A stretch of 63,310 nucleotides of DNA, counting the filler, from Folioceros fuciformis (Eukaryota): assembly GCA_049999805.1 (NCBI GenBank). It is 22 parts of 22 records of this genome, joined end to end, with 100 filler letters (N's around TTAATTAATTAA, not from the genome) between each part and the next. Parts side by side here need not be neighbours in the genome. Positions count along the whole stretch, not along the records: positions 55,831 to 60,248 come from JBNGIO010002822.1; 21 more parts are not named here. One strand, written 5' to 3'. Both the position numbers and the translations under genes were made by a program. Below, in pieces: positions 12,125-60,248 of this stretch; positions within the stretch are counted from its first letter, which is position 1; every line of letters starts with the position of its first letter. The notes beneath the pieces were generated by a model. That model saw only the letters and a list, made by a program, of their open reading frames with translations, ran no database searches and was not told the DNA's origin.

Positions 12125-12695
12125 GTGGATCCAAAAGAAGAAGCGGGACAAAGAGATGGAGAGGGAAGGGGGAGAAGAGGAAAATGGAGGAAGGGAGGGA
12201 GGAAGAGAGGAAGAAAGGGATGGGAGCGGCCGCAGCCCCTACCCTAGCTAGGGCACGGCCTCCATGGCCGTTTAAGCCAGCCAGACAATCAGCCAACCTG
12301 ACATTGGACCCTGACATACCCCAGATTCCCGTTCCTATGTTCGAACCATTGTTTTATTATTTAACATTATTCTATTATTATTTAATCATTTAATACTATA
12401 TATCTTTAATTAGTAATAAACCAATCACCAAACCTAGATTCAAACTTTTCCGACCCTATGGTCTGGTACCAGACCTAAACTTTCCCAGGTCTGGGACCAA
12501 ACCTATACCCACTCTAGTAACCAAACCAACTAGTTCTTGGTCAATTAACCTATTTAGCACAAAGAAAAATAGGAAAAATAACCAGAAAATAAAAGAAAAT
12601 TAGGGTAAATAAGTAGAAAAAGAAAACCAAACCATACCAGTATTCACCCTTTTTCAACCAAAACAAACCACTACCCCAAACTTTGGAGGTTCACA
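12125..12695 (+). mobile_element. LTR 3' end (family E), ending GGAGGTTCACA
   Basis: 12463-12695 is near-identical to 50694-50926, and the homology stops exactly at TTCACA in both copies. Confidence 0.7.
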
Positions 12696-19260: not shown

Positions 19261-19968
19261 ATGGCCAATTTAGTGGACGGGCAGAAATGGCGGCCACGCC
19301 CTGCTGAGCGCATCCAACAGAGGAATGCCCACAGAGTACAACGAATTCAAGAGGGCAGGCTGACGTTTGCAGAATCACTTCACCATCAAACCCTGGATTG
19401 GATTCTTCAAACACAAGACCAGCTTGAACAATCCCGGCTTGTGAGAGATTCCTTCAATAATTTGCTTGAGGCTATCTTCCCACAACAGCGCCATTTGTTG
19501 CTTCCTCCACCACCCAGGAATCAAATTAATCTTCCACCCATTGTAAACGGTAACCCTAGGGGTTTCCTGACAACACACACATCACCACATGTTAGTGTGT
19601 CACAATTAAATGCAAGAATAGAAACACTTCAACAGCATGTTGACGAGTGTTTCCAGAGCATTCGTCATAAGATAGCTGAAGTCAGTGTTGACTTGCAAGA
19701 TTTGAAGGAACGTATAGGACATTTGGACTTCAAGTTGCTTACCTTGCTTAACCCCGTTTTGCTAACACATCCTGCACTCAGAGGTGTTGCTTGCAAACGT
19801 GCTAACAAGAATTATAAGCAACACACTTTTGACGCTCCAAATTCTTGTCCTTCATGCTCTGTTTATGCATTTAACAGATGGGAGATTAGACATCAAAGGA
19901 TAGAAAATAGATTAGCAAATCAACAGGCCAATTTACCTCAAGTTGGTAGATTTGCTCACCCCTTGTAG
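19261..19968 (+). CDS. Extra 235-aa ORF upstream of Copia gag (predicted coiled coil plus CxxC), function unknown
   Basis: Intact ATG-to-TAG ORF, also intact in the second copy (12 aa differences). Heptad-like IETLQQHVD...LQDLKERIGHLD and CPSC. Confidence 0.75.
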   Translation: MANLVDGQKWRPRPAERIQQRNAHRVQRIQEGRLTFAESLHHQTLDWILQTQDQLEQSRLVRDSFNNLLEAIFPQQRHLLLPPPPRNQINLPPIVNGNPRGFLTTHTSPHVSVSQLNARIETLQQHVDECFQSIRHKIAEVSVDLQDLKERIGHLDFKLLTLLNPVLLTHPALRGVACKRANKNYKQHTFDAPNSCPSCSVYAFNRWEIRHQRIENRLANQQANLPQVGRFAHPL

Positions 19969-21150: not shown

Positions 21151-23471
21151 GAGTGTGTACTGCTTCAACTCCATTCTGCAATGACTCAACTTGATCTTGT
21201 ATCACGTCGAGGAGAGGTTAGGAAAAAAGATTGATTAATCTTTTTTATAATAAAATAATTTCATCCTTTTGTGTGAAACCCAGTATGAGAATTTGATAAC
21301 TTTTTACCAGGAATTGCAATTGAAACAAGCTATGATAGAGGAGAACCAAGTGAAAACGTCTGGAGACATGGCTTCTGAGATGGTTAACCATGTAACAAAA
21401 TTGTCACACCATATGAAACAGTTAGAAAATGTATTGGATAATGATAGTAATATGATGGGACAAGCTAGCAAGTTTTTTCCAACAGCAGCAAGGTGTGCAT
21501 ATAACTATCATGAAGAAAAGAAGGAGGAACCTGAGATTGAGAACTCCGAGAATCTATTTATCTCTTCATTCCCAAAAGATGTATACATGAATGATGTACA
21601 TGCAGCGGCTGAAATTCAAAGGAATCAAATTGTTGGGTTCATGAAAAACTATGGGGTTTATGGGCAGGACTCTTTAGGCATAGAGAGTCAGTTTAGACCT
21701 TTGGATAGGAATAGCTCTAATTCAAATAGCTTTGGCCATGAAGTACATGTACCTTGGTCCAAAGACAAAGGTACATTGGCTTCACCATCCAAATGGAAGC
21801 CATGCTACATGCAAAATGGCCCGCAAAATTTACATGCAAGGCGCAAGGATTGGGGCCATTGGAAGAGATGGGTAGCTTGGAAATGGAGATGGGCTGCTGC
21901 TGCAGCTAGAGCAGATCAACTAGTGAAACAGTTGTCAAGTTGGAATGTGTTGAAGAAACACCTACAAACAGAAAGTGAACAATACAATCTTAGAATGAGA
22001 AAGCAACATTCTAAACTATCAGACAAACCTTATCATGCTCAAAACATTGAAAGGGAGCAAAACTTGGTAAAAATAGTGGAGTCTGCATGGAACACTTTTG
22101 CTAAGGATGCCAAGATTGATCCCGACTCTAATGTGTTGAAATCCACCTCCAATAAGTTATTAGCTTCCTTGCCTTGGTGGATTCGTAGAGTTGGTGATAG
22201 GAAAAGGATGGAACGTTGTTTTCTCCATTGGCGGCGACTTACTCGCAAGAGAATGAGAGAAAAGAAAAATTTGTCCATCAAAAATGGATGTACCAAAATG
22301 GTCAAAGTAGAGCCTACTTATAACGATCCTAAGGATCCTTATGTTCCATATTATGTGAAGGTTGGTAATGCTGAAGCTTTAGTTGCATTGAAGCAAATGA
22401 CAAAACCCTACCAAGTGCTCAAGTTTTATCAAAAGGGTGGACCTCCGAACCAGCTGCACTATGGAAAGCTTCCTAATATGCATATCACTTCTAGAATGGG
22501 AAAGGATTCAGAGCTACTCTATGGACCGAGTAGGGTGGCAAGAAGTGATATCGTATCAATGCATGGCCTTTGTCCCACATTTACATCTAGAGCTTTGCGA
22601 ATGCTTCAGGTTAGCAGAGAGTTCCACAGTAACTGACAATACTCGTTGAATAGTTTCCACATGAGTCGTGTTATGATAATCATTCCTAATTGCTCGCAAA
22701 CCCATTTGCAGACATCTTTGCAACAAGAGCTTGAAAAATTTGAAAGCATGCTGCAAAATGAAATCAAGGCCCTTCAAAATCATGTAGCGATACAGATATC
22801 TTTCAACAAAATGACCACATGTCTCAATAAGTTTATGGTCACATATCTTTTCTCTTGCATGCTTCTATCACATGATTTGAGTTCCTTTTGTTGTCTTGGT
22901 GCAGATAAGAATGGAGGAAGCTATGAGCAGTTATACTGGTGGCAAAAATGAGTGGCATGTATTCCGGGGTAGTATAGATAGGAGGGGTTGTATTAAAAAT
23001 TATTTAAACTCTCTTTGGCATGTAAGCAATATTTTAGATTTAGCATTAAACAAAGCTAAGAAGCAACTGATGAACAGGGGGAAACGAGTAGATCAATTAA
23101 GCTTAAGGGCATCTTTTCCTTCAGCTTTTGTTTCACCTTGCCAGAATGGTTGGAAGAGAAAGGTTGGGGCCAAGAGTTGCGTGGCCCAATTTTCCAAAAC
23201 CTCTGGGCTTAGGACAGAGCCTATCTCGAGTTGCGTATGTTGTGCAGAACACCAACCCAACAATGTTTGTCTATGGAATAAGAGTAGGATCACAAAAGAT
23301 CGTGATTTTGTTGGATCGCGCTATGCTGCACTACTGAAATCTGAATTATCTCAAACTCATGATAAACAAGATGACCCATTGATTGAGGTTGATAATTTTG
23401 GGGATGTACTTCCTAAAAGGGCACCTTCCGCTGCCTTATATAAAAGAAAACCTTTCTGGAAATTTCATTGA
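21151..23471 (+). CDS. Host gene of unknown function, 5'-truncated; exons 21151-21216, 21311-22609, 22712-22783, 22905-23471 (~667 aa)
   Basis: Three phase-0 GT-AG introns join four open frames without stops. Coiled-coil-like and Trp/Arg-rich segments; no transposon motifs seen. Confidence 0.75.
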
Positions 23472-26626: not shown

Positions 26627-27652
26627 TACCTAGCAGTCTATGTGGACGATTTGATACTATCCAGTAACAGCCAGGCATTCATAACAAGTATAACTGATGT
26701 ATTGGCCACCAAATTCAAGATGTCCTGTTTAGGCCCCCTACAGAGTTGCCTAGGGATACACATCCAACGGAACAGGAAGACTCGGGTCATGACTCTGACT
26801 CAACCACGTTACCTCTTGGATTGTGTCGAGTAGCTTGGCCTCAAGGATGCTAAGCCTGCATCAACGCCCATGGCAGCGGGTCAGAAACTAAGCAAGACCA
26901 TGTCACCTGTAACTAGAGACGAAAAGGCACAAGTGAAAAACATACCCTATAGACAGGGTGTTGGCAAGTTGATATATGCCAGTAATACAACAAGACCAGG
27001 GATTGCTTACACTACGAGTGTATTGTCACAGTTTCTGGAAAATCCAGGTGTGGAGTACTGGACAAGTCTTAAGCGTGCATTCAAATACCTGAAAGGTACA
27101 TCTAGGCTAGGGATTACGTATAAGCATAAAAAAGGACAGCCCTTGGACCTTGAAGTCTTTACAGACTCGGACTATGCCGGTGATATCGACAACAGAAAGT
27201 CGGTTTTAGGATATGTGATTTCCATAGCAGCAGGTCCAGTGTGTTGGTCAAGCAAAAAGCAACCAACAGTTGCTTTGTCTTCAACGGAAGTAGAATATCG
27301 GGTCCTGACCGCGGCTGCAAAGGAAATCGTTTGGTGTCAGTTGCTATTTAAGGAGCTAGGTATTCAAATACCAACGTGCATCACTATACATATTGACAAT
27401 CAGGGCTCAATGGCCTTGGCAAGAAATCCAGTTCTTCATTCGAGAACGAAGCATGTAGAGGTAGAATACCACTACATACGAGGGCTCGTGAATGAAGGCA
27501 AAATAGATTTACAATAAGTCCCGACGCAGGATAATCCAGCAGACATATTGACGAAAGCCTTAAGCAGAGAATTACACTTTAAGCACATGCAACGTTTGGG
27601 CATAGGAGATGTAGAAGCACACCATCTACTTCTAAAAGCCCGAGGAGACTGA
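26627..27652 (+). mobile_element. Ty1/Copia RT C-terminus and RNase H
   Basis: AVYVDDL, FTDSDYAGD, VALSSTE.EY and HSRTKHVEV motifs; two in-frame stops; ends TGA at 27650-27652. Confidence 0.95.
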
Positions 27653-28400
27653 GTTATCAGAATCAGATATCATGTCTAACACTATCTCAGTTCCAGCCTC
27701 AACAGTGTCAAAGGTAGACTCATCTCTAGTCTTGAAGGAGGCATCGGGCGCCCAGTCTTTGCAAGGCTTCAGGCGGCACAATTCTTTATACTTGGCTTCA
27801 TCACCAGTCGCTCTCGCTTCTTCCAACATCTTCCACTCCTCCCTAATACGCCTAGTGGACTCTGTCCACAGCAAGTGGGAGCAGTCAGTAAAACCACAAG
27901 CAACTTGAAGACAGCAACTTCAGCAGTAGTGAAAAGCAGTGAACGGGGTTTGTAATCTTAATGTACAGACTAACAACATGCCCAGGAAAGCATCTGCAGC
28001 GGAGGACTTTCACTCTCTTCATCGTCAGTTCCTCCGAGTCAACCCAAGCTTTGTACCAGATCGGAGAGCAAGGGAACTCCAGGGTGCCATAGGTCACAAC
28101 CTTCGTCTCTTCACCACGACACTTGGGCTTTGGCAGGCGTACCGGGATGCGGCTCTTGGAGCCGTCACTGTAGTATGCCACATCCAAGTTGAGCACTCTG
28201 GTAAAGGGCAAAACCACGAACTCTTCTTCTTCTACAGGCGGAGGGGGTGGTGATGGCTGTCGCTGAGGCGCAGAGGGACCAACCATGTTGGAAACAGTCT
28301 GCACCACACCGCGTTTGTTGTGCTCCAGAAACTCCTTCGTAGTTCCCAGCGGCCGTCCAGGTTTCCAATCCGCCGTTGTACGAGTTCGCAAAGGAACCTA
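27632..28400 (-). CDS. Antisense accessory gene of a Copia element; exons ~28397-27962 and 27861-27632 (donor mutated to TT)
   Basis: Homologous to 57971-58728. Removing 27961-27862 (branch TACTGAC, acceptor ACAG) fuses the two ORFs in frame. Confidence 0.75.
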
Positions 28401-28616
28401 GTGATCAAGAACAAGAAACAGGTTGAAGCAGCGCACCTCAGCTCAGGAGCTTTCATATAGGTGTCTGTACCAGGCGGTGGCATCTTCACTGGCGATGCTC
28501 ACAGCTGGAACGTAATNNNNNNNNNNNNNNNNNNNNNNNNNNNNNNNNNNNNNNNNNNNNTTAATTAATTAANNNNNNNNNNNNNNNNNNNNNNNNNNNN
28601 NNNNNNNNNNNNNNNN

Positions 28617-50691: not shown

Positions 50692-50926
50692 GCCTGGTAC
50701 CGAACCTAAACCTTCCCAGCTCTGGGACCAAACCTATACCCACTCTTATAACCAAACCAACTATTTCCTGGTCAATTAACCTAATTAGCACAAAGAAAAA
50801 TAGGAAAAATAACCAGAAAATCAAGGAAAATTAGGAAAAATAAGTTGAAAAGGAAAACCAAACCATACCACTATTAACCCTTTTTCAACCAAAACAAACT
50901 ACTACCCCAAACTTTGGAGGTTCACA
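50692..50926 (+). mobile_element. LTR 3' end (family E)
   Basis: Near-identical to 12463-12695. Confidence 0.75.
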
Positions 50927-53298: not shown

Positions 53299-55730
53299 TG
53301 ATGAGAATAGGGTGTTAATACATTAGGTTTCGTTTGGTGAATGCGTTCATAGCTACTATAAGTCTAGGTGCCCGTTCATTTGGGTTACATCCTTTATGAA
53401 GGGTGTGTCTATTCACCCTACCTAGCTTAAGTTCAGTTATTTGTCTATGCTGTACATAATTATTGTTTAATCAATATAATAATGTAATTTTTTTATAGCA
53501 ATTGGTCTACACCAATTTCCATATTTTCTCATGGTATCAAAGCAAGGTTTAGGTGTAGATTACACTTGTGATAATGCACATTAAAATCTCCACATTCTGA
53601 TGTGCAGGACAATGTATTTTGTTTACATGTTTTATTGTTGTTTTCTTTTAAAGAAACTATTTTAAAACATACTTCAAGAAATAGGTTTATAGCTTTCTTG
53701 ATTTTATATTTAGAAGATTTGCACTTCTAGTAGGTTGTTCTAGTGTATCCATTGTCAAATTGCACTCTAGCAATCTGGCACTAGGCACGCTAGAACAATT
53801 GCCAGAATTGGCAAATATTTAATTATAGAATCATTCACAAAGTTACAAATGTTTCTCGAAAAATAACAAAGTACAAAAGCTTGGCCAAATGAATGGCCAA
53901 TTTGGTGGACGGGCAGCAACGGCGGCCACGCCTTGCTGAGCGCATCCAACAGAGGAATGCCCACAGAGGACAACGAATTCTAGAGGGCAGGCTGACTTTT
54001 GCAGAATCACTTCACCATCAAACCCTGGATTGGATTCTTCAAACACAAGACCAGCCTGAACAATCCCGGCTTGTGAGAGATTCCTTCAACAATCTACTTG
54101 AGGCTATCTTCCCACAACAGCGCCATTTGTTGCTTCCTCCACTACCCAGGAATCAAATTAATCTTCCACCTATTGTAAACGGTAACCCTAGGGGTTTCCT
54201 GACAACACACACATCACCACATGTTAGTGTGTCACAATTAATTGCAAGAATAGAAACACTTCAACAGCATGTTGACGAGCGTTTCCAGAGCATTCGTCAC
54301 AAGATAGCTGAAGTCAGTGTTGACTTGCAAGATTTGAAGGAACGTATAGGACATTTGGACTTCAAGTTGCTTACCTTGCTTAAGCCCGTTTTGCTAACAA
54401 ATCCTGCACTCAGAGGTGTTGCTTGCAAACGTGCTAACAAGAATTATAAGCAACACACTTTTGACGCTCCAAATTCCTGTCCTTCATGCTCTGTTTATGC
54501 ACTTAACAGATGGGAGATTAGACATCAAAGGATAGAAAATAGATTAGCAAATCAACAAGCCAATTTACCTCAAGTTGGTAGATTTGCTCACCCCTTGTAG
54601 ATAGGGCTGCTCCTGCAGTTTATCTAAGATGCAACAGTAGCATCTTACCTCTTCCCAGTCTTTCTCTTCAGTTTGTACCTTGTCCGGATAGGCTACAAAG
54701 CTGCATACAACCATTTTTCCTAACAATTAGGATAGAATTACTACATTCTAATAAATGGCAGACACCACTACTGTAGTTGGTGATATTTTTAAGGAGAAAG
54801 ATAGATTTGGGGGGACTGACTATGACATCTGGGTCATGTGTATGAAAGGAGCCTTACAAAGTAAGAAGCTATGGAAGATAGCAACAGGAAATGAATCACT
54901 TCCAACACCTACTACATCTTCTGAATCTTCTCCTTCTTCTGCTGAAAAAAGATACCAAGAAGCTTGGTATACAAAGGATGAAGCTGCAATGCACCTGTTG
55001 AGAAGTGGACTAACCTCTGACATGCTGCGACAGACTTCTGGCTGCAATACATCTTTTGAGATATGGACCAGATTACATGAGCTGTACGCAAGTGTTAATA
55101 CCACAAGTCAGATGACAGCCCTTCGCAACATTCAAAATTGCAAAATGAGAGAAGGGGAGACAGTTGAAAAACATGTTGGGCATTTTAGATCACTTGTTTC
55201 TAAGTTAGAAAGTGCTTCATAGGAGGCTCTATCTGATGAGCTGCTTACCTTATATTTCATGATGTCTCTCCCTGACTCATGGTCACACTTTGTGACATCT
55301 TACAATGCTTCTCAGCTACAGGCTTCAAAGATAGCTAAGGTTGCAGGTGTCACAATACCACAGACAACATTTTCTGAGTTAGTGGGAGCTCTTCTTCAGG
55401 AAGAAGCTACAAGAGGACAAAACAGGCGTGCTAGCAAGCAGCAGGCTCTTTACACCATAAATAAAAACAAGGGCGCGAGGCCCAACTTCAAAGGTAAACA
55501 GAATACCTTTCAAGGTGCTGGTGCCTCACGGAGAGGGACAGCACAGAAGAAACCCAAGAAGTCTGGAAAATGCCACTGGTGCCAGATTCCAGGACATTGG
55601 GAAAATGAATGTCGAAAGAAGCAGGCCGGAGTACCTCGTAAGGAGGGCAACTCTACTTCTGAGACACATGTTGTGGTGAAAAAGCAAGGCTCACCTTCTG
55701 CCCTTACAGTAGGGATTAGGAAGTTTGCAT
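53299..55730 (+). mobile_element. Second copy of the extra-ORF Copia family: LTR 53299-53531, PBS 53532-53543, extra ORF and gag
   Basis: Collinear and near-identical to 18666-21050. Confidence 0.93.
53893..54600 (+). CDS. Extra 235-aa ORF upstream of gag (copy 2)
   Basis: Intact, and 223/235 aa identical to 19261-19968. Confidence 0.75.
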   Translation: MANLVDGQQRRPRLAERIQQRNAHRGQRILEGRLTFAESLHHQTLDWILQTQDQPEQSRLVRDSFNNLLEAIFPQQRHLLLPPLPRNQINLPPIVNGNPRGFLTTHTSPHVSVSQLIARIETLQQHVDERFQSIRHKIAEVSVDLQDLKERIGHLDFKLLTLLKPVLLTNPALRGVACKRANKNYKQHTFDAPNSCPSCSVYALNRWEIRHQRIENRLANQQANLPQVGRFAHPL

Positions 55731-55830: not shown

Positions 55831-57779
55831 AGTAGTCTAGGGCTAGGGGCTGTGCTGGCTCAACAGGATGAAGCAGGTTGTGAGCGTGTGGTTGCTTACG
55901 CCTCGCGTAGCAACAATCGAGCTGAAGCCAACTATAGCAGCTACGAGGGTGAATGCCTCGCTGCTGTGTGGGCAGTGTGCCACTTCAGACCATATTTATA
56001 TGGTCAGAAGTTCACACTCGTGACAGACCATCAACCACTCAAGTGGCTGATGACCAACACCAAGCTCAGTGGCAAACTCGCACGTTGGGCCATGATCCTT
56101 CAAGATTACGAATTCCAGGTTGAACATCGGCCAGGAGTGAAGCACCAGAATGCTGATACCTTGTCACGAAATCCTGACAGCAGTTGTGTGGATACCACTG
56201 GAGCTCGCCAAGATGAAGAGTACAGCACAATGCTTGCCGTATCGGCTCTGGTGGCCATGACTTGCTTGGGACAGGTGCCTGTAGATGCAGCTCAGCAATC
56301 CTCCAAGGATATTTGGGAGGATCCAGCTACCCTTCAGTATGTGCAGACAGGTAGAGAGGACCCGACTTGGACCGCGGCCACAAGGGAACGAGTTCACCAA
56401 CGGGCTACCAAGTATTGTTGGCGGGACGGACATCTCATCCGTCAACAGGCTCAAGGAGTGGAGCGATTGGTACCCCCACAGCAGATCCTGCTGCCCTCAT
56501 CAAAAGGGTGCATGATGACATGGGTCATTTTGGGGTCAAACGCACCTACAGCCTGTTGACTCCCTATTTCTACTGGAATCGAATGCATGAACAAGTGAAG
56601 GAACGAGTAGCCTGTTGCGAGCAATGCGACCGTGTCAAGGCTTCCTTCACCATGCAGCACCCAGAGCTGCACCCTTTGCCCATCATGGGTTTATTCTTCA
56701 GATGGTCATGCGACCTGATGGGTGAGCTCCCGCAGTCTCCACGAGGCAACCTGTATGCGATGATCATGATGGAACACTTCAGCAAGTGGGTGGAGGTAGT
56801 GGCCCTGCCAGACAAGACCTCTAGGAGTACCTCACAAGCCTTCCTACAATGTGTGCTCAGTAGGTTTGGTGGCTGCGCAGAGTGTCTCACAGATCAGGGT
56901 TCTGAGTTTCGAGGAGAATTCCAGGATCTAATGGATGCAGCCCTTATTGACCACAGGAGAACTAGCCGGGACCACCCGCAGGCTGATGGCTTAGCCGAGC
57001 GCATGGTCCAGACTATGAAGAAGGGGCTTTGCAAGCTGTGTCTCCGAGAACCCAAAACAGATTGGGATCTCATGCTTCCATATATTGCAATGGGTTACCG
57101 CATGAGCAAGCATGCTGCCCTTGCCCATTTTTCCCCTTACTTCCTCTTGTTTGGCAGAGAACCAATTCCACCTAGTTCTATAGCCAAACAAATGCTAGAA
57201 GTTGTCAAGCTGGATGATGCAGCTACATGGGCACGTGTGATAGGTAACAGGGCAGCCTTGTTCAAACAGGCCATGCCCATGGCAATGGCTAACTTGCACA
57301 TTGCCCAGCATAGGGATACCCTTCATTATGCACACACTAGGGGAGGCAGTTTTAGGCCCAAGCTCAGGAAGTTCCAGGTAGGAGACTTTGTTTACCTGCA
57401 GAGGCAGACCTCAGATGCCCTGGACACTTCTAGCAGTCGGCATGTGTTGCGGATTCAGGAGGTCAAGCCTAATGGCATCCTGGTATTGCAAGGCTCAGAT
57501 GGTCGGATCACCACTGACCACACCAAGAATTGCGCACCTTGCCACTTGCCCAATCTTGATCCTTCTATTGTCACAGCAGATTGGATTCCACCAGCGGACT
57601 ATCCTTGCCAGGTTTGTCAACGCACTGATGATGCTAACCTCATCTTACTTTGTGATGGCTGCAATGGGGGTTTCCACCTTTTCTGCTTACAGCCACCACT
57701 TACCCATGTACCGGAGCAACTTTGGTATTGTCCCAAGTGCCAACCGGACACAGCAGGTGTGACCAACCTAGGAGTGTAG
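55831..57779 (+). mobile_element. Ty3/Gypsy RNase H and integrase with a C-terminal PHD finger; one frameshift near 56480
   Basis: VAYASR, TDHQPLKWL, ADTLSR, HHCC, TDQGSEF and GLAER motifs; C4HC3 CQVC..LLCDGC..FHLFCL..WYCPKC. G-rich PPT-like tract at 57821. Confidence 0.95.
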
Positions 57780-57970
57780 CTCTTATCGTGCTCTTCATGC
57801 TTTCAGCCCGTCCATCAGCTGGGGGGGGAAGGCATGGACAATCTTTTTGTTCTCTTTTTTTTTGAGTGCACAAGACATTAGCCTTGCAGCTGATGGATTG
57901 AATTGAAGTGCTCACAACAGCTGATACCGGGAGCACGACACACCGCCACAACCGTGATGCTCTAGGGTAA

Positions 57971-58728
57971 TTCGCGCCAAGGACAACTACCAAAGATATA
58001 AAGCCGAAGCTTGATGCTGTCAGCACAAAGAAGAAGGTTGGGCGGCCGCAAGGAACAACGAAAGGCTTTCTGGAGCGGCGCAAGCTTGACGCGCTACGGG
58101 TTGAAGCCAACATGGCTGGTCCTTCCATCAATCAGCGGCGATCATCAACTCCTCAGGAATGAGAGGAGAAGGAGGAGGTTACGCCCTACATCAGGGTGCT
58201 GAACCTGGATGTCTCATATTACAGCAACAGCTGCAAGAGCCGTGTGCCTATGAAGCTTCCGGAACCCATCAGCTACGATGAAGAAACTCTGATTGTGATC
58301 TGTGGCACACGTGAGTTTCCATGTTCTCCAATCTGGTACAAAGCTTGGGTTGGTCTTGATGAGCTAACTATGAAGAGGGTGAAGGTTCTTTGCTGCAGAT
58401 GCTTCGCTGGACACGTCGTCAGTGTGTACAGTAAGTGTCTGCTCCCTCTTTTAGCTGCTGTTGCTGTTTCTTGTTCTTGACAATTGTTTATATCTCCCAC
58501 TTGTTGGGTGCAGAGTCCACAAAGAAGATTAAGGAGGAAAGGAGGCTGGAGGATGAAGAGAAGGCTTTCGATTCTGGAGTGAAGCCACACCAAGAAGATC
58601 CGTCACCCGACACTGATTCCAAGACTGATACTGAAGATGAGTCAACTCACGATGTTTTAAAGTCAGGAGTTGGCATAGAGATTCAGGACATTATTGATTC
58701 TGATTACTCTAACTCCTCGGGCTTTTAG
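57971..58728 (+). CDS. Antisense accessory gene of a Copia element; exons ~57971-58430 and 58514-58728, one premature stop at 58160
   Basis: A GTAAGT...GTGCAG 83-nt intron restores the frame. About 70% identical to the 27632-28400 gene in the core domain. Confidence 0.78.
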
Positions 58729-58740
58729 GAATATTGTGTG

Positions 58741-60248
58741 TTACTCTGAACTGGATAGGAGAGCTTCTGCCTCTCCCATTCCCAAACGCTGTATATGCTT
58801 GTGATGAGCTTCTTTGCTCAAAACCTTTGTTAGTATGTCCGCTGAGTTGTCCTGTGTCGGAACATATTGCAAATCAATTTTCCCTTCCGTCACAAGCCCC
58901 CTTATATAGTGGTATTCAACCTCCACATGTTTTGTACGTACGTGAAACACTGGATTTCTTGCTAATGCCATTGAGCCCTGATTGTCTGTGTGGATTGTTG
59001 TGCAAGTAGGTATCTAAATTCCTAATTCCTTGAACAAAAGCTTACACCATACTATTTCTTTGGCTGCTGCTGTCAGGACCTGGTACTCTGCCTCTGTTGA
59101 AGAAAGAGCAACCATTGGTTGCTTCTTACTAGACCAGCATACAGGCCCTCCAGCAATTGAAATGACATAGCTTGAAACTGATTTTCTACTGTCTATGTCT
59201 CTTGCATAGTCTGCGTCTGTAAATACCTCAAGATCTAGAGGATTTCCTTTTTTATTCTTATAAGCTATGCCAATTTTTGCTGTGCCTTTCAAGTAACGGA
59301 AGGCACGTTTCAAGTTTGTCCAGTGTTCTTTCCCGGGGTTTTCCAAGAACTGTGAGAGCACACTGGTGGTATATGCAACTTCTAGTCTTGTAGTATTGCT
59401 TGCATATATCAGTTTGCGTACACCTTGCTTGTAAGGAACTCCTGTCATTTGCTCCTTGTCTTCTTGAGTTGAAGGTGACATGAGCTTGCTAAGTTTCTGA
59501 CCAATGGCATAGGTGTTGATACAGGTTTTGCATCCTTAAGACCTAGTTGCTGAGCACAATCTAAAAGGTAACGGGGTTGTGTTAGTGTCATTACGCGAGT
59601 CTGCCTATTTCTTTGAACATGAATTCCTAGACAGCTCTGTAAGGGTCCTAGGCAATTCATTCTGAATTTTGTTGCTAACACATCTGTTATACTTGTGATG
59701 AAGGTCTGACTATTGCTTGATAAAATTAGGTCATCAACGTAAACTGCCAAGTAGCATATGACATTCCCTTTGAGGTAAATATACAAGCTACTATTTGCTT
59801 GACTCTTAGTGCCTCCTCATATGATTGAGGTTCAATGAGATCAAGGGAAAAATTATCAGCATGAACTGCCACATGAGAAGAAGGATTCCTGAAGTCTGGA
59901 GCTTGGTAAAGGTCTGGAGGCTGCTTATGACGAGTAGAATACCGCTGGACTGGTTCGGCAGGCAAAACTTGATGATCATACTGAAGGTCAGCTGCATTCT
60001 CATTTTCAACTGGGTCAATTTGGTCAACTGGTTCTGCTTGTTCTGGTACAACTTGTTCAGGAGGAGGTTGGTCCTATAAATCCAGGTCAGGTGCATTGAT
60101 ATGTGCAGGTTCTGAAGTTGCTATGTCCTCAACATCAACCAGCTCAAAACCAGCTGCTGGATCTTGCCCACCTGCAGGAACAATGTCCTCCATAGGAACA
60201 ACCTGTGTGCTATGATCGGATTGATCAAAAGAAGTGTCATCATCCATT
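58741..60248 (-). mobile_element. Ty1/Copia RT end and RNase H, with an internal deletion of most of RT near 59790
   Basis: EPQSYEEAL is joined almost directly to YLAVYVDDL. FTDADYA, SSTEAEY and FHVRTKHVEV motifs. Related to 26627-27652. Confidence 0.93.

What the first reader, a model, noticed from the sequence alone, without database searches (positions are those of the whole stretch)
57971..58728. Spliced antisense gene carried by Copia elements, converging on the pol stop
Seen in sequence: two diverged Copia elements (this one and 26627-28516) each carry a homologous ORF on the strand opposite pol. It ends 12 nt from the pol stop here and overlaps it by ~21 nt in the other element. The 78-aa core (VLNLDV.YYS...EFPCSPIWYKAWV...ELTMKRVKVL.CRCF.GHVVS.Y) is ~55/78 identical, with differences in the best-conserved block at third codon positions (TTC/TTT, CCT/CCA, TGC/TGT, CCG/CCA), which implies purifying selection on this frame. 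Both have a frame-restoring intron at the same codon (here GTAAGT..GTGCAG, 58431-58513) and an acidic tail ending D.I.DSD.S.SSGF*. Established: canonical Copia elements have only gag-pol, and extra 3' ORFs are mainly known from Sireviruses (sense) and some Gypsy Tat/Ogre lineages. Inference: an intron in antisense orientation survives reverse transcription, so this looks like a separately transcribed accessory gene, possibly an anti-silencing or targeting factor.
Basis: partly seen in the sequence, partly recalled or inferred. Interest (0 to 1): 0.88.

Follow-up and report, generated by a model that had tools for sequence, protein, structure and literature searches.

The report
Spliced backward gene in Copia retrotransposon
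Two old, broken copies of a Copia-type jumping gene each carry, tail-to-tail with their polymerase gene, the same extra intron-containing gene of unknown family that evolution has clearly kept as a protein, an arrangement so far described mainly in Gypsy-type elements.

Summary
The window is 22 small contigs joined by linkers. Two of them (55831-60248 and 26627-28516) share one colinear 1.7-kb unit at 69% identity. The unit is the RT/RNase H end of a Copia pol plus a convergent ORF.

The ORF's stop lies 12 nt from the pol stop in copy A and overlaps it by 21 nt in copy B. Its 80-codon core differs at codon positions 16/12/39, with pN/pS 0.24; pol from the same pair gives 0.15. A T-rich, poorly conserved intron (83 vs 100 nt) sits at the same codon and restores the same frame in both copies.

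This is a real gene maintained while the element lineage was active, in the class of antisense accessory ORFs between pol and the 3' LTR.

Caveats:
- Both copies are dead: an in-frame TGA in A, a TT intron donor in B.
- Conserved coding runs upstream to a closed frame, so the 5' exon is missing.
- No LTR is visible.
- Copy A abuts an unrelated PHD-bearing Gypsy pol.

No homologue, domain or confident fold was found, so the function is inferred only: probably a nuclear DNA/chromatin-binding regulator. Expression could not be tested.

The parts
57971..58430 (+). Copy A, conserved coding exon. It has a basic N-part with the GRPxGTTK motif (GRP at 58040-58048), a conserved ATG at 58112-58114 and a Cys/His core at 58190-58429. 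The frame is closed upstream by TAA at 57968-57970.
58160..58162 (+). Copy A, in-frame TGA in the acidic linker. It is a disabling nonsense codon relative to copy B.
58431..58513 (+). Copy A intron, 83 nt, GTAAGT...TGCAG, 45% T. Read through, the frame stops inside the intron.
58514..58728 (+). Copy A last exon: an acidic, Ser-rich tail ending ..DIIDSDYSNSSGF, then TAG.
58741..60248 (-). Copy A Copia pol: the C-terminal part of RVT_2 plus RNase H. It is degenerate, with a stop at 59014-59016, a frameshift near 59445-59535, and only RVT_2 profile positions 145-242 of 244 present.
57780..57970 (.). Unresolved junction between the natural end of the Gypsy pol and the Copia unit. It holds a G-run on the + strand (about 57821-57833) and an A-rich run on the - strand (about 57850-57875), both read by eye as possible polypurine tracts.
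   Evidence: inference
27962..28397 (-). Copy B conserved coding exon (read 28397 down to 27962), an open frame of 145 codons with the conserved ATG at 28286-28284. It is preceded by a pyrimidine tract and TAG at 28400-28398, which looks like a splice acceptor.
27862..27961 (-). Copy B intron, 100 nt (read 27961 down to 27862). The donor is TTAAGA (GT lost) and the acceptor is CAG. 42 of 100 aligned columns are identical to A.
27632..27861 (-). Copy B last exon (read 27861 down to 27632), ending ..MISDSDNSVSSGF then TAG. Its last 21 nt (27632-27652) overlap the pol reading frame.
26627..27652 (+). Copy B Copia pol: the RVT_2 C-terminal part plus RNase H, with two nonsense codons (26831-26833 and 27515-27517).

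Best explanation
This is an accessory gene of a Ty1/copia lineage, lying in the internal region downstream of pol on the opposite strand. It belongs to the class of antisense extra ORFs between pol and the 3' LTR.

Shown:
- It is a protein-coding gene of at least two exons.
- It was maintained by purifying selection while the two element lineages diverged.
- It is tail-to-tail with pol, within 21 nt or less.
- Both copies in the window are now dead.

Inferred:
- It is transcribed from its own antisense promoter in or near the 3' LTR.
- An upstream exon that carries the start codon lies beyond the sequence available.
- The intron survives retrotransposition because it is not a splice substrate in the sense genomic RNA.
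- The convergent transcripts must overlap the 3' end of pol.

Proposed function, at roughly one in three: a nuclear regulator or tether that binds DNA or chromatin. Binding would use the basic GRP (AT-hook-like) segment and a C..CxC..H core, and the acidic Ser-rich tail would recruit host factors. The protein would act on the element's own transcription, silencing or integration.
For: - One colinear 68.7%-identical HSP spans the ORF and pol in two separate contigs.
- ORF core: 80 codons, 0 stops, differences 16/12/39 by codon position, pS 0.678, pN 0.164, pN/pS 0.24 (bootstrap 0.14-0.38). The other five frames carry 2-7 stops.
- The upstream 52 codons give dN/dS of about 0.19.
- Pol of the same pair: pS 0.768, pN 0.118, ratio 0.15, 80% amino-acid identity. 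Both genes therefore evolved under constraint as one unit.
- Each gene carries only 1-2 disabling lesions despite saturated synonymous divergence.
- The intron is at the same codon and phase with different lengths (83 vs 100 nt). Only 42 of 100 aligned columns are identical, against 72% in the exon core. It is 45% and 36% T, against 23-26% in the exons. Both readthrough frames stop inside it.
- The C-terminus and stop position are conserved.
- The overlap with the pol reading frame places the 3' end inside the element.
- Segment make-up is basic (pI 11), then Cys-bearing, then acidic (pI 4.3-4.7).
- The class is known from other elements (passages of PMC7264820 and PMC11963269).
Against: - Only 2 copies are available, both fragments. 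No LTR, primer binding site or target duplication is in view, so the gene's 5' side is not shown to lie inside the element.
- Copy A lies 192 nt downstream of a Gypsy pol on the same strand.
- Neither copy has a start codon at the head of the conserved frame. A has a nonsense codon and B has lost the GT donor.
- No expression data.
- No homologue was found in 1.84 billion representative proteins beyond 2 repeat-inflated hits.
- The last exon shows weak constraint, dN/dS about 0.63.
- Pfam reports no AT-hook, and both structure models are unusable (pLDDT 38.6 and 38.0). The functional part therefore rests on motifs read by eye.
Confidence: 0.65

Rival explanations
1. The ORF belongs to the PHD-bearing Gypsy element as a sense 3' ORF, and the antisense Copia piece is passenger DNA in a composite unit.
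For: In copy A the ORF follows a complete Gypsy pol C-terminus on the same strand after 192 nt. Copy B's contig ends 119 nt upstream of the ORF, so a Gypsy pol there cannot be excluded.
Against: Copia pol in the same unit is under strong purifying selection (ratio 0.15). That is not expected of passenger DNA. The search listed 260 relatives of this Gypsy integrase, yet the profile search of all representative proteins found no credible ORF homologue. No upstream similarity between A and B was detected.
Confidence: 0.07
2. This is a host gene, or gene fragment, sitting next to Copia remnants. The whole segment was duplicated, so it is not an element gene.
For: No LTR is seen. The gene has introns like a host gene. 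The window holds only two copies.
Against: The ORF stop abuts pol in A and overlaps it in B, with no LTR in between. Pol shows TE-type purifying selection over saturated synonymous divergence, with only 1-2 lesions per copy. Dead duplicated DNA would not show that. No host-type homologue turned up in the databases searched, which do hold plant proteins.
Confidence: 0.08
3. The gene was captured once and is merely carried along, with no role for the element. Alternatively, the constrained feature is an antisense RNA, not a protein.
For: Function is unknown and there are no homologues. The last exon is weakly constrained. Convergent transcription over pol could by itself feed small-RNA regulation, an idea raised in PMC7264820.
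Against: The codon-position pattern and the stop-free frame are specific to one frame. The intron phase is conserved despite indels. RNA-only constraint would not produce these features.
Confidence: 0.12
4. It is a chance open frame or an assembly artefact.
For: The contigs are short and repeat-rich, and the A contig joins two truncated elements.
Against: Two independent contigs share the same junction. The third-position bias has p = 7e-5.
Confidence: 0.02

Closest known systems
Antisense additional ORFs between pol and the 3' LTR (aORF-3R / eORF-3'R) of plant Ty3/gypsy Tat-Retand elements: maize Grande gene23, rice RIRE2, Silene Retand (TRP28). Source: passages of PMC7264820 and PMC11963269.
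   Same: It sits downstream of pol on the opposite strand. It is conserved about as well as element proteins. It has no known function. A nuclear or DNA-binding role is suspected. Grande gene23 has its own promoter.
   Different: The host element here is Ty1/copia, not Gypsy. The gene is tightly packed, at most 21 nt from the pol stop, in a region of roughly 0.8-0.9 kb instead of 3-6.5 kb. There is no Transposase_28 domain. An intron is present, whereas 'intron' occurs 0 times in the text of either paper.
HTLV-1 HBZ: an antisense gene with a promoter in the 3' LTR. The review passages mention the antisense genes and the promoter; the splicing and bZIP details are recalled.
   Same: An antisense accessory gene of a retroelement. 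It is spliced. Here the 5' exon and promoter are predicted to lie in the 3' LTR.
   Different: No bZIP or any other Pfam domain. No sequence relation. The promoter position here is only inferred.
SIRE (Sirevirus) eORF-3'F, the env-like ORF of Ty1/copia (passages of PMC6317226).
   Same: An extra ORF downstream of pol in a Copia lineage.
   Different: The SIRE ORF is in sense orientation. The one here is antisense and intron-bearing.
The brtn antisense gene of the fungal Gypsy element Boty (cited in PMC7264820; seen as a passage and a reference title only).
   Same: An antisense extra gene in an LTR retrotransposon outside the Tat/Retand group.
   Different: It is a fungal Gypsy element.

Membership tests
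Ty1/copia LTR retrotransposon (host element) | Copia-type RT (Pfam RVT_2) followed by RNase H at the C-terminal end of pol | tested here: met
   RVT_2 is found in both copies (E 5e-10 and 3e-14). The RNase H part is 40-44% identical to other Copia pol genes in the window. Database relatives carry PF07727.
Ty1/copia LTR retrotransposon (host element) | Flanking LTRs, primer binding site, polypurine tract and target-site duplication | tested here: inconclusive
   The contigs end before any LTR. Only purine runs read by eye are available. No whole genome is held.
Antisense extra ORF between pol and the 3' LTR (aORF-3R) | Lies downstream of the pol stop, on the opposite strand | tested here: met
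Antisense extra ORF between pol and the 3' LTR (aORF-3R) | Lies upstream of (inside) the 3' LTR | tested here: inconclusive
   The 3' end overlaps pol, so that end is internal. The 5' end and the LTR are not visible.
Antisense extra ORF between pol and the 3' LTR (aORF-3R) | Present in most family copies, with conservation like the element's own proteins | tested here: met
   2 of 2 copies in the window carry it. pN/pS is 0.24, against 0.15 for pol. A genome-wide census was not possible.
Antisense extra ORF between pol and the 3' LTR (aORF-3R) | Own antisense transcript | not testable with these tools
Retand/Tat TRP28 antisense protein (Pfam Transposase_28, PF04195) | Transposase_28 domain | tested here: not met
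   No Pfam family matched any ORF segment, at E up to 1 for A's three segments and B's first exon and at E up to 0.01 for B's last exon.
AT-hook DNA-binding proteins | RGRP core flanked by basic residues (Pfam AT_hook) | tested here: not met
   The motif is K(V/P)GRP(Q/L)G, without the first Arg. Pfam gives no hit. It is a resemblance only.

The most novel reading that the evidence does not exclude
A bryophyte-type Copia lineage evolved an HBZ-like arrangement. A spliced antisense gene has its first exon and promoter in the 3' LTR. It encodes a previously unseen zinc-binding, DNA-tethering protein that shields the element from silencing or steers its integration. That would make it the first such factor in Ty1/copia.
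Probability: 0.12. Interest if true: 0.75.

Novelty: new variant of a known kind. Interest (0 to 1): 0.5.

Why it matters
Antisense accessory genes are an accepted but functionally unsolved feature of some Gypsy lineages and of deltaretroviruses. A selection-maintained, intron-bearing example in Ty1/copia would matter in three ways:
- It would show that the strategy arose independently in the other superfamily.
- The antisense intron would be built-in evidence that the gene is expressed from its own transcript.
- It would offer a compact protein of roughly 180-250 residues for testing what such genes do.

Surveys that require 250 codons or more of unbroken ORF (PMC6317226) would miss genes of this kind.

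Tried and rejected
**Searches with the ORF**
- Pfam on four ORF segments and on the last exon of B: no family.
- Word-indexed protein search, near lengths only: 9 candidates, none scored.
- Profile search of 1.84 billion representative proteins: 2 hits, both tandem-repeat proteins whose scores sum 4-6 near-identical short matches.
  - Pairwise, the best single repeat of P0001 gives 35 bits (25 of 63 identical, shared GTL..PC.PIWY).
  - P0002 gives 27 bits.
  - I treat both as unproven. P0001 is kept as a weak lead.
- Protein atlas: best score 0.77, below any useful level.
- PDB sequence search: best E 0.12.
- AlphaFold2 on the two-sequence alignments: pLDDT 38.6 and 38.0. No fold search was run.

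**Searches for more copies**
- ORF scans of metagenome, viral and prokaryote genome contigs: no confirmed relative in any.
- Pol scan of metagenome contigs: 4 loci at 41% identity or less, none with an ORF homologue.
- The closest pol relative is P0003, 67% identical, on a 2.5-kb contig.
- No whole genome is held for this window.
- Earlier-findings look-ups: nothing relevant.

**Within the window**
- I looked for an in-frame upstream exon in B's last 119 nt. By my own reading of the sequence, neither ATG there joins the conserved frame through a canonical donor.
- The upstream flanks of A and B were compared at DNA and peptide level: no significant similarity.
- The LTR of another Copia family in the window (start near 53300) does not match the flanks of A or B.

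**Literature**
- Four searches returned results. None returned a description of a spliced antisense gene in Ty1/copia.
- I read passages only, not whole papers.
- Supplements are closed. The eORF tables of PMC6317226 might list antisense eORFs in Copia lineages.

Full report
**What the window is.** The window is not one locus. It is 22 contigs of 1.0-8.9 kb joined by 21 linkers of 44 N, TTAATTAATTAA, 44 N. The finding lies in contig A (55831-60248). The 'other element' is contig B (26627-28516). No whole genome is held, so everything rests on these two fragments and on public databases.

**Anatomy of copy A**.
- On the + strand there is a Gypsy-type RNase H and integrase ORF. Pfam finds Integrase_H2C2, rve and a C-terminal PHD finger.
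- That ORF ends at 57779. Alignment with five database relatives shows this is its natural end.
- A conserved + strand frame opens 192 nt later, at 57971, and runs to TAG at 58726-58728. It is interrupted by an 83-nt GTAAGT..CAG intron at 58431-58513.
- Twelve nucleotides further on, the - strand stop (58741-58743) of a Copia pol is reached. That pol occupies the rest of the contig and comprises RVT_2 profile positions 145-242 plus RNase H.

**Anatomy of copy B**.
- Copia pol is on the + strand (RVT_2 C-terminal part, then RNase H) with its stop at 27650-27652.
- The ORF is on the - strand from 28397 to 27632.
- The two reading frames therefore overlap by 21 nt.

**Is the resemblance real?**
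- blastn gives a single colinear alignment, A 58039-59753 to B 28359-26627, 68.7% identical over 1772 columns. It runs straight through the ORF/pol junction.
- tblastn finds these 2 copies in the window and no third.
- The ungapped 80-codon core is 70% identical in protein and 72% in DNA. Differences fall 16/12/39 on codon positions 1/2/3 (chi-square p = 7e-5).
- Nei-Gojobori proportions for the core are pS 0.678 and pN 0.164, ratio 0.24 (bootstrap 0.14-0.38).
- The coding frame has no stop. The other five frames have 2-7.
- The 52 aligned codons upstream of the core also look coding, with dN/dS about 0.19. The acidic last exon is much less constrained, at about 0.63 on an uncertain alignment.
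- Pol of the same pair gives pS 0.768, pN 0.118, ratio 0.15 and 80% amino-acid identity, with differences at 36/24/111.

Synonymous sites are saturated in both genes, yet each has only one or two disabling lesions. Most of the divergence therefore accumulated while both genes were functional. The two genes were inherited together, which is what is expected of one replicating element.

**The intron.**
- In both copies the frame breaks at the same codon, after ..V(S)(V/L)Y, in phase 1.
- It resumes after a CAG in the frame that yields the conserved ST(K/R)(K/R)I(K/R)EE.. and the ..DSD.S.SSGF* ending.
- The two introns are 83 and 100 nt long, a difference that is not a multiple of three.
- Only 42 of 100 aligned columns are identical, mostly in the last 25 nt or so before the acceptor.
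- They are T-rich, 45% and 36%, against 23-26% in the exons.
- Read through, both frames hit a stop inside the intron.

This is good comparative evidence for a genuine intron. Its reverse complement is not a splice substrate in the sense genomic RNA, so it can pass through reverse transcription.

1. Copy B's donor is TTAAGA, so the GT is lost. By my own reading, a GTTAGT four codons upstream and an AG two bases downstream would also splice in frame. That is conjecture.
2. Copy A has an in-frame TGA at 58160-58162, in the acidic linker between the basic part and the core.
3. Conserved coding extends to the very start of both open frames. Both are closed at the same aligned point by a stop, preceded in B by a pyrimidine tract and AG.
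   - A conserved ATG in good context lies inside the frame (A 58112-58114, B 28286-28284).
   - The conserved K(V/P)GRP(Q/L)GTTK.FLE segment lies upstream of that ATG.
   - The likeliest reading is that at least one more 5' exon exists beyond the available sequence. I found no in-frame canonical way to join either ATG in B's last 119 nt.
4. Pol is also damaged.
   - A has a stop at 59014-59016, a frameshift near 59445-59535, and lacks RVT_2 profile positions 1-144.
   - B has two nonsense codons.
   - Both copies are dead relics.

**Is the gene inside the element?**
- At its 3' end, yes. It abuts pol in A and overlaps it in B, with no room for an LTR.
- At its 5' end this cannot be shown, because no LTR is visible.
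- On the Copia sense strand both copies have a purine run followed by T-TG just beyond the conserved coding. In B it is right at 28403-28423. In A it is at about 57875-57850. These could be the polypurine tract and the start of the LTR.
- If so, the gene would fill the whole internal region, with its promoter and first exon in the LTR. This is a by-eye inference.
- In A the picture is confused by a G-run on the + strand (about 57821-57833) that could be the Gypsy polypurine tract. One of the two elements must be truncated within 190 nt, by rearrangement or by mis-assembly of repeats.

**Why not a Gypsy gene?**
- Same-strand adjacency in A is the main argument for that rival.
- Against it, the Copia pol in the unit is under strong selection.
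- The Gypsy integrase has 260 listed relatives. The named ones include the liverwort Calypogeia fissa at 54-76% identity, Klebsormidium and Haematococcus. Yet the exhaustive profile search found no credible relative of the ORF.
- The Copia pol is itself rare. Its one close relative is P0003 at 67%. The next is at 46% across the whole query, and no other listed hit exceeds 55% even over a partial alignment.
- These hits also suggest, as a lead only, that the source is a streptophyte of bryophyte grade.

**What does it encode?**
- No Pfam family, no PDB sequence relative, no atlas neighbour and no usable AlphaFold model (pLDDT 38.6 and 38.0).
- No relatives in metagenome, viral or prokaryote contig scans.
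- The sequence itself shows three segments:
  - a basic N-part (pI 11) with a GRP motif that resembles but does not meet the AT-hook core;
  - a Pro/Glu linker followed by a core with invariant C, CxC and H (C-x23-C-x-C-x3-H in B);
  - an acidic, Ser-rich tail (pI 4.3-4.7) whose hydrophobic patch followed by SDSD recalls, from memory only, phospho-regulated SUMO-interaction motifs.
- On this basis I propose a nuclear DNA/chromatin-binding regulator or tether, at roughly one-in-three confidence.
- Because the ORF ends at the pol stop, its 3' UTR must run antisense into pol. The transcript could therefore also act through double-stranded RNA, an idea raised for other elements in PMC7264820.

**Comparison with what is known.**
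[quoted passage not shown] - Their function is unknown. Some are nuclear or carry DNA-binding domains. Grande's has its own promoter.
  - The passages draw the comparison with HTLV antisense genes.
  - The word 'intron' occurs in neither paper.
- PMC6317226 counted extra ORFs of 250 codons or more in 582 Ty1/copia elements, out of 5410 elements classified as Ty1/copia. It names only the sense-oriented SIRE ORF as characteristic of a Copia lineage.
  - A split gene with exons of about 145 and 75 codons would fall below its threshold.
  - Its supplementary tables, which I could not open, might list antisense cases.
- My four successful literature searches returned no description of a spliced antisense gene in Ty1/copia.
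- I therefore rate this a new variant of a known kind.

**Verdict.** The core of the interpretation, an accessory gene, is supported, but transcription, LTR context and function are open. Interest is moderate at 0.5. The comparative signal is clean and the arrangement is unusual for Copia. However, the evidence is two dead fragments, and the class already exists.

Noticed in passing
window 1-63310: The window is a chain of 22 unplaced contigs (1.0-8.9 kb) joined by N44-TTAATTAATTAA-N44 six-frame-stop linkers. Adjacency between contigs means nothing. Most contigs examined carry Copia pieces (gag, integrase, RVT_2).
   Followed up: yes
window 55831-57779 (+): A Gypsy-type pol has a PHD finger fused in frame to the integrase C-terminus. 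The best named relatives are from the liverwort Calypogeia fissa (54-76% identity), then Klebsormidium and Haematococcus. This suggests a bryophyte-grade streptophyte source.
   Followed up: partly
window 53893-54600 (+) and 19261-19968 (+): A 235-codon ORF (MANLVDG...) lies between the start of an LTR (near 53300 / 18667) and Copia gag (54755), in two contigs that share 2.4 kb at 97% identity. The 21 differences fall 6/6/9 by codon position and give 12 amino-acid changes, so there is no sign of purifying selection. Pfam finds nothing.
   Followed up: partly
protein P0001 (database hit, 398 aa): A protein made of four tandem units of about 98 residues. Each unit weakly resembles the first half of the ORF core (25 of 63 identical, shared GTL..PC.PIWY). 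The match is significant only because the repeats add up. It could be a satellite derived from a related element gene, or chance.
   Followed up: partly
window 59445-60073 (-): Copy A's pol passes from the integrase-RT linker (..EPQSYEEAL..) almost directly to the YVDD region. About 140 residues of the N-terminal RT appear to be deleted.
   Followed up: partly
window 21254-22636 (+): A 460-codon open frame with no Pfam match, on a low-GC contig (37-39%). It was not examined further.
   Followed up: no
window 50694-50926 and 12463-12695: A second short repeat, 233 bp at 92% identity, is shared by the same two contigs that share the Copia 5' region. Its nature is unknown.
   Followed up: no
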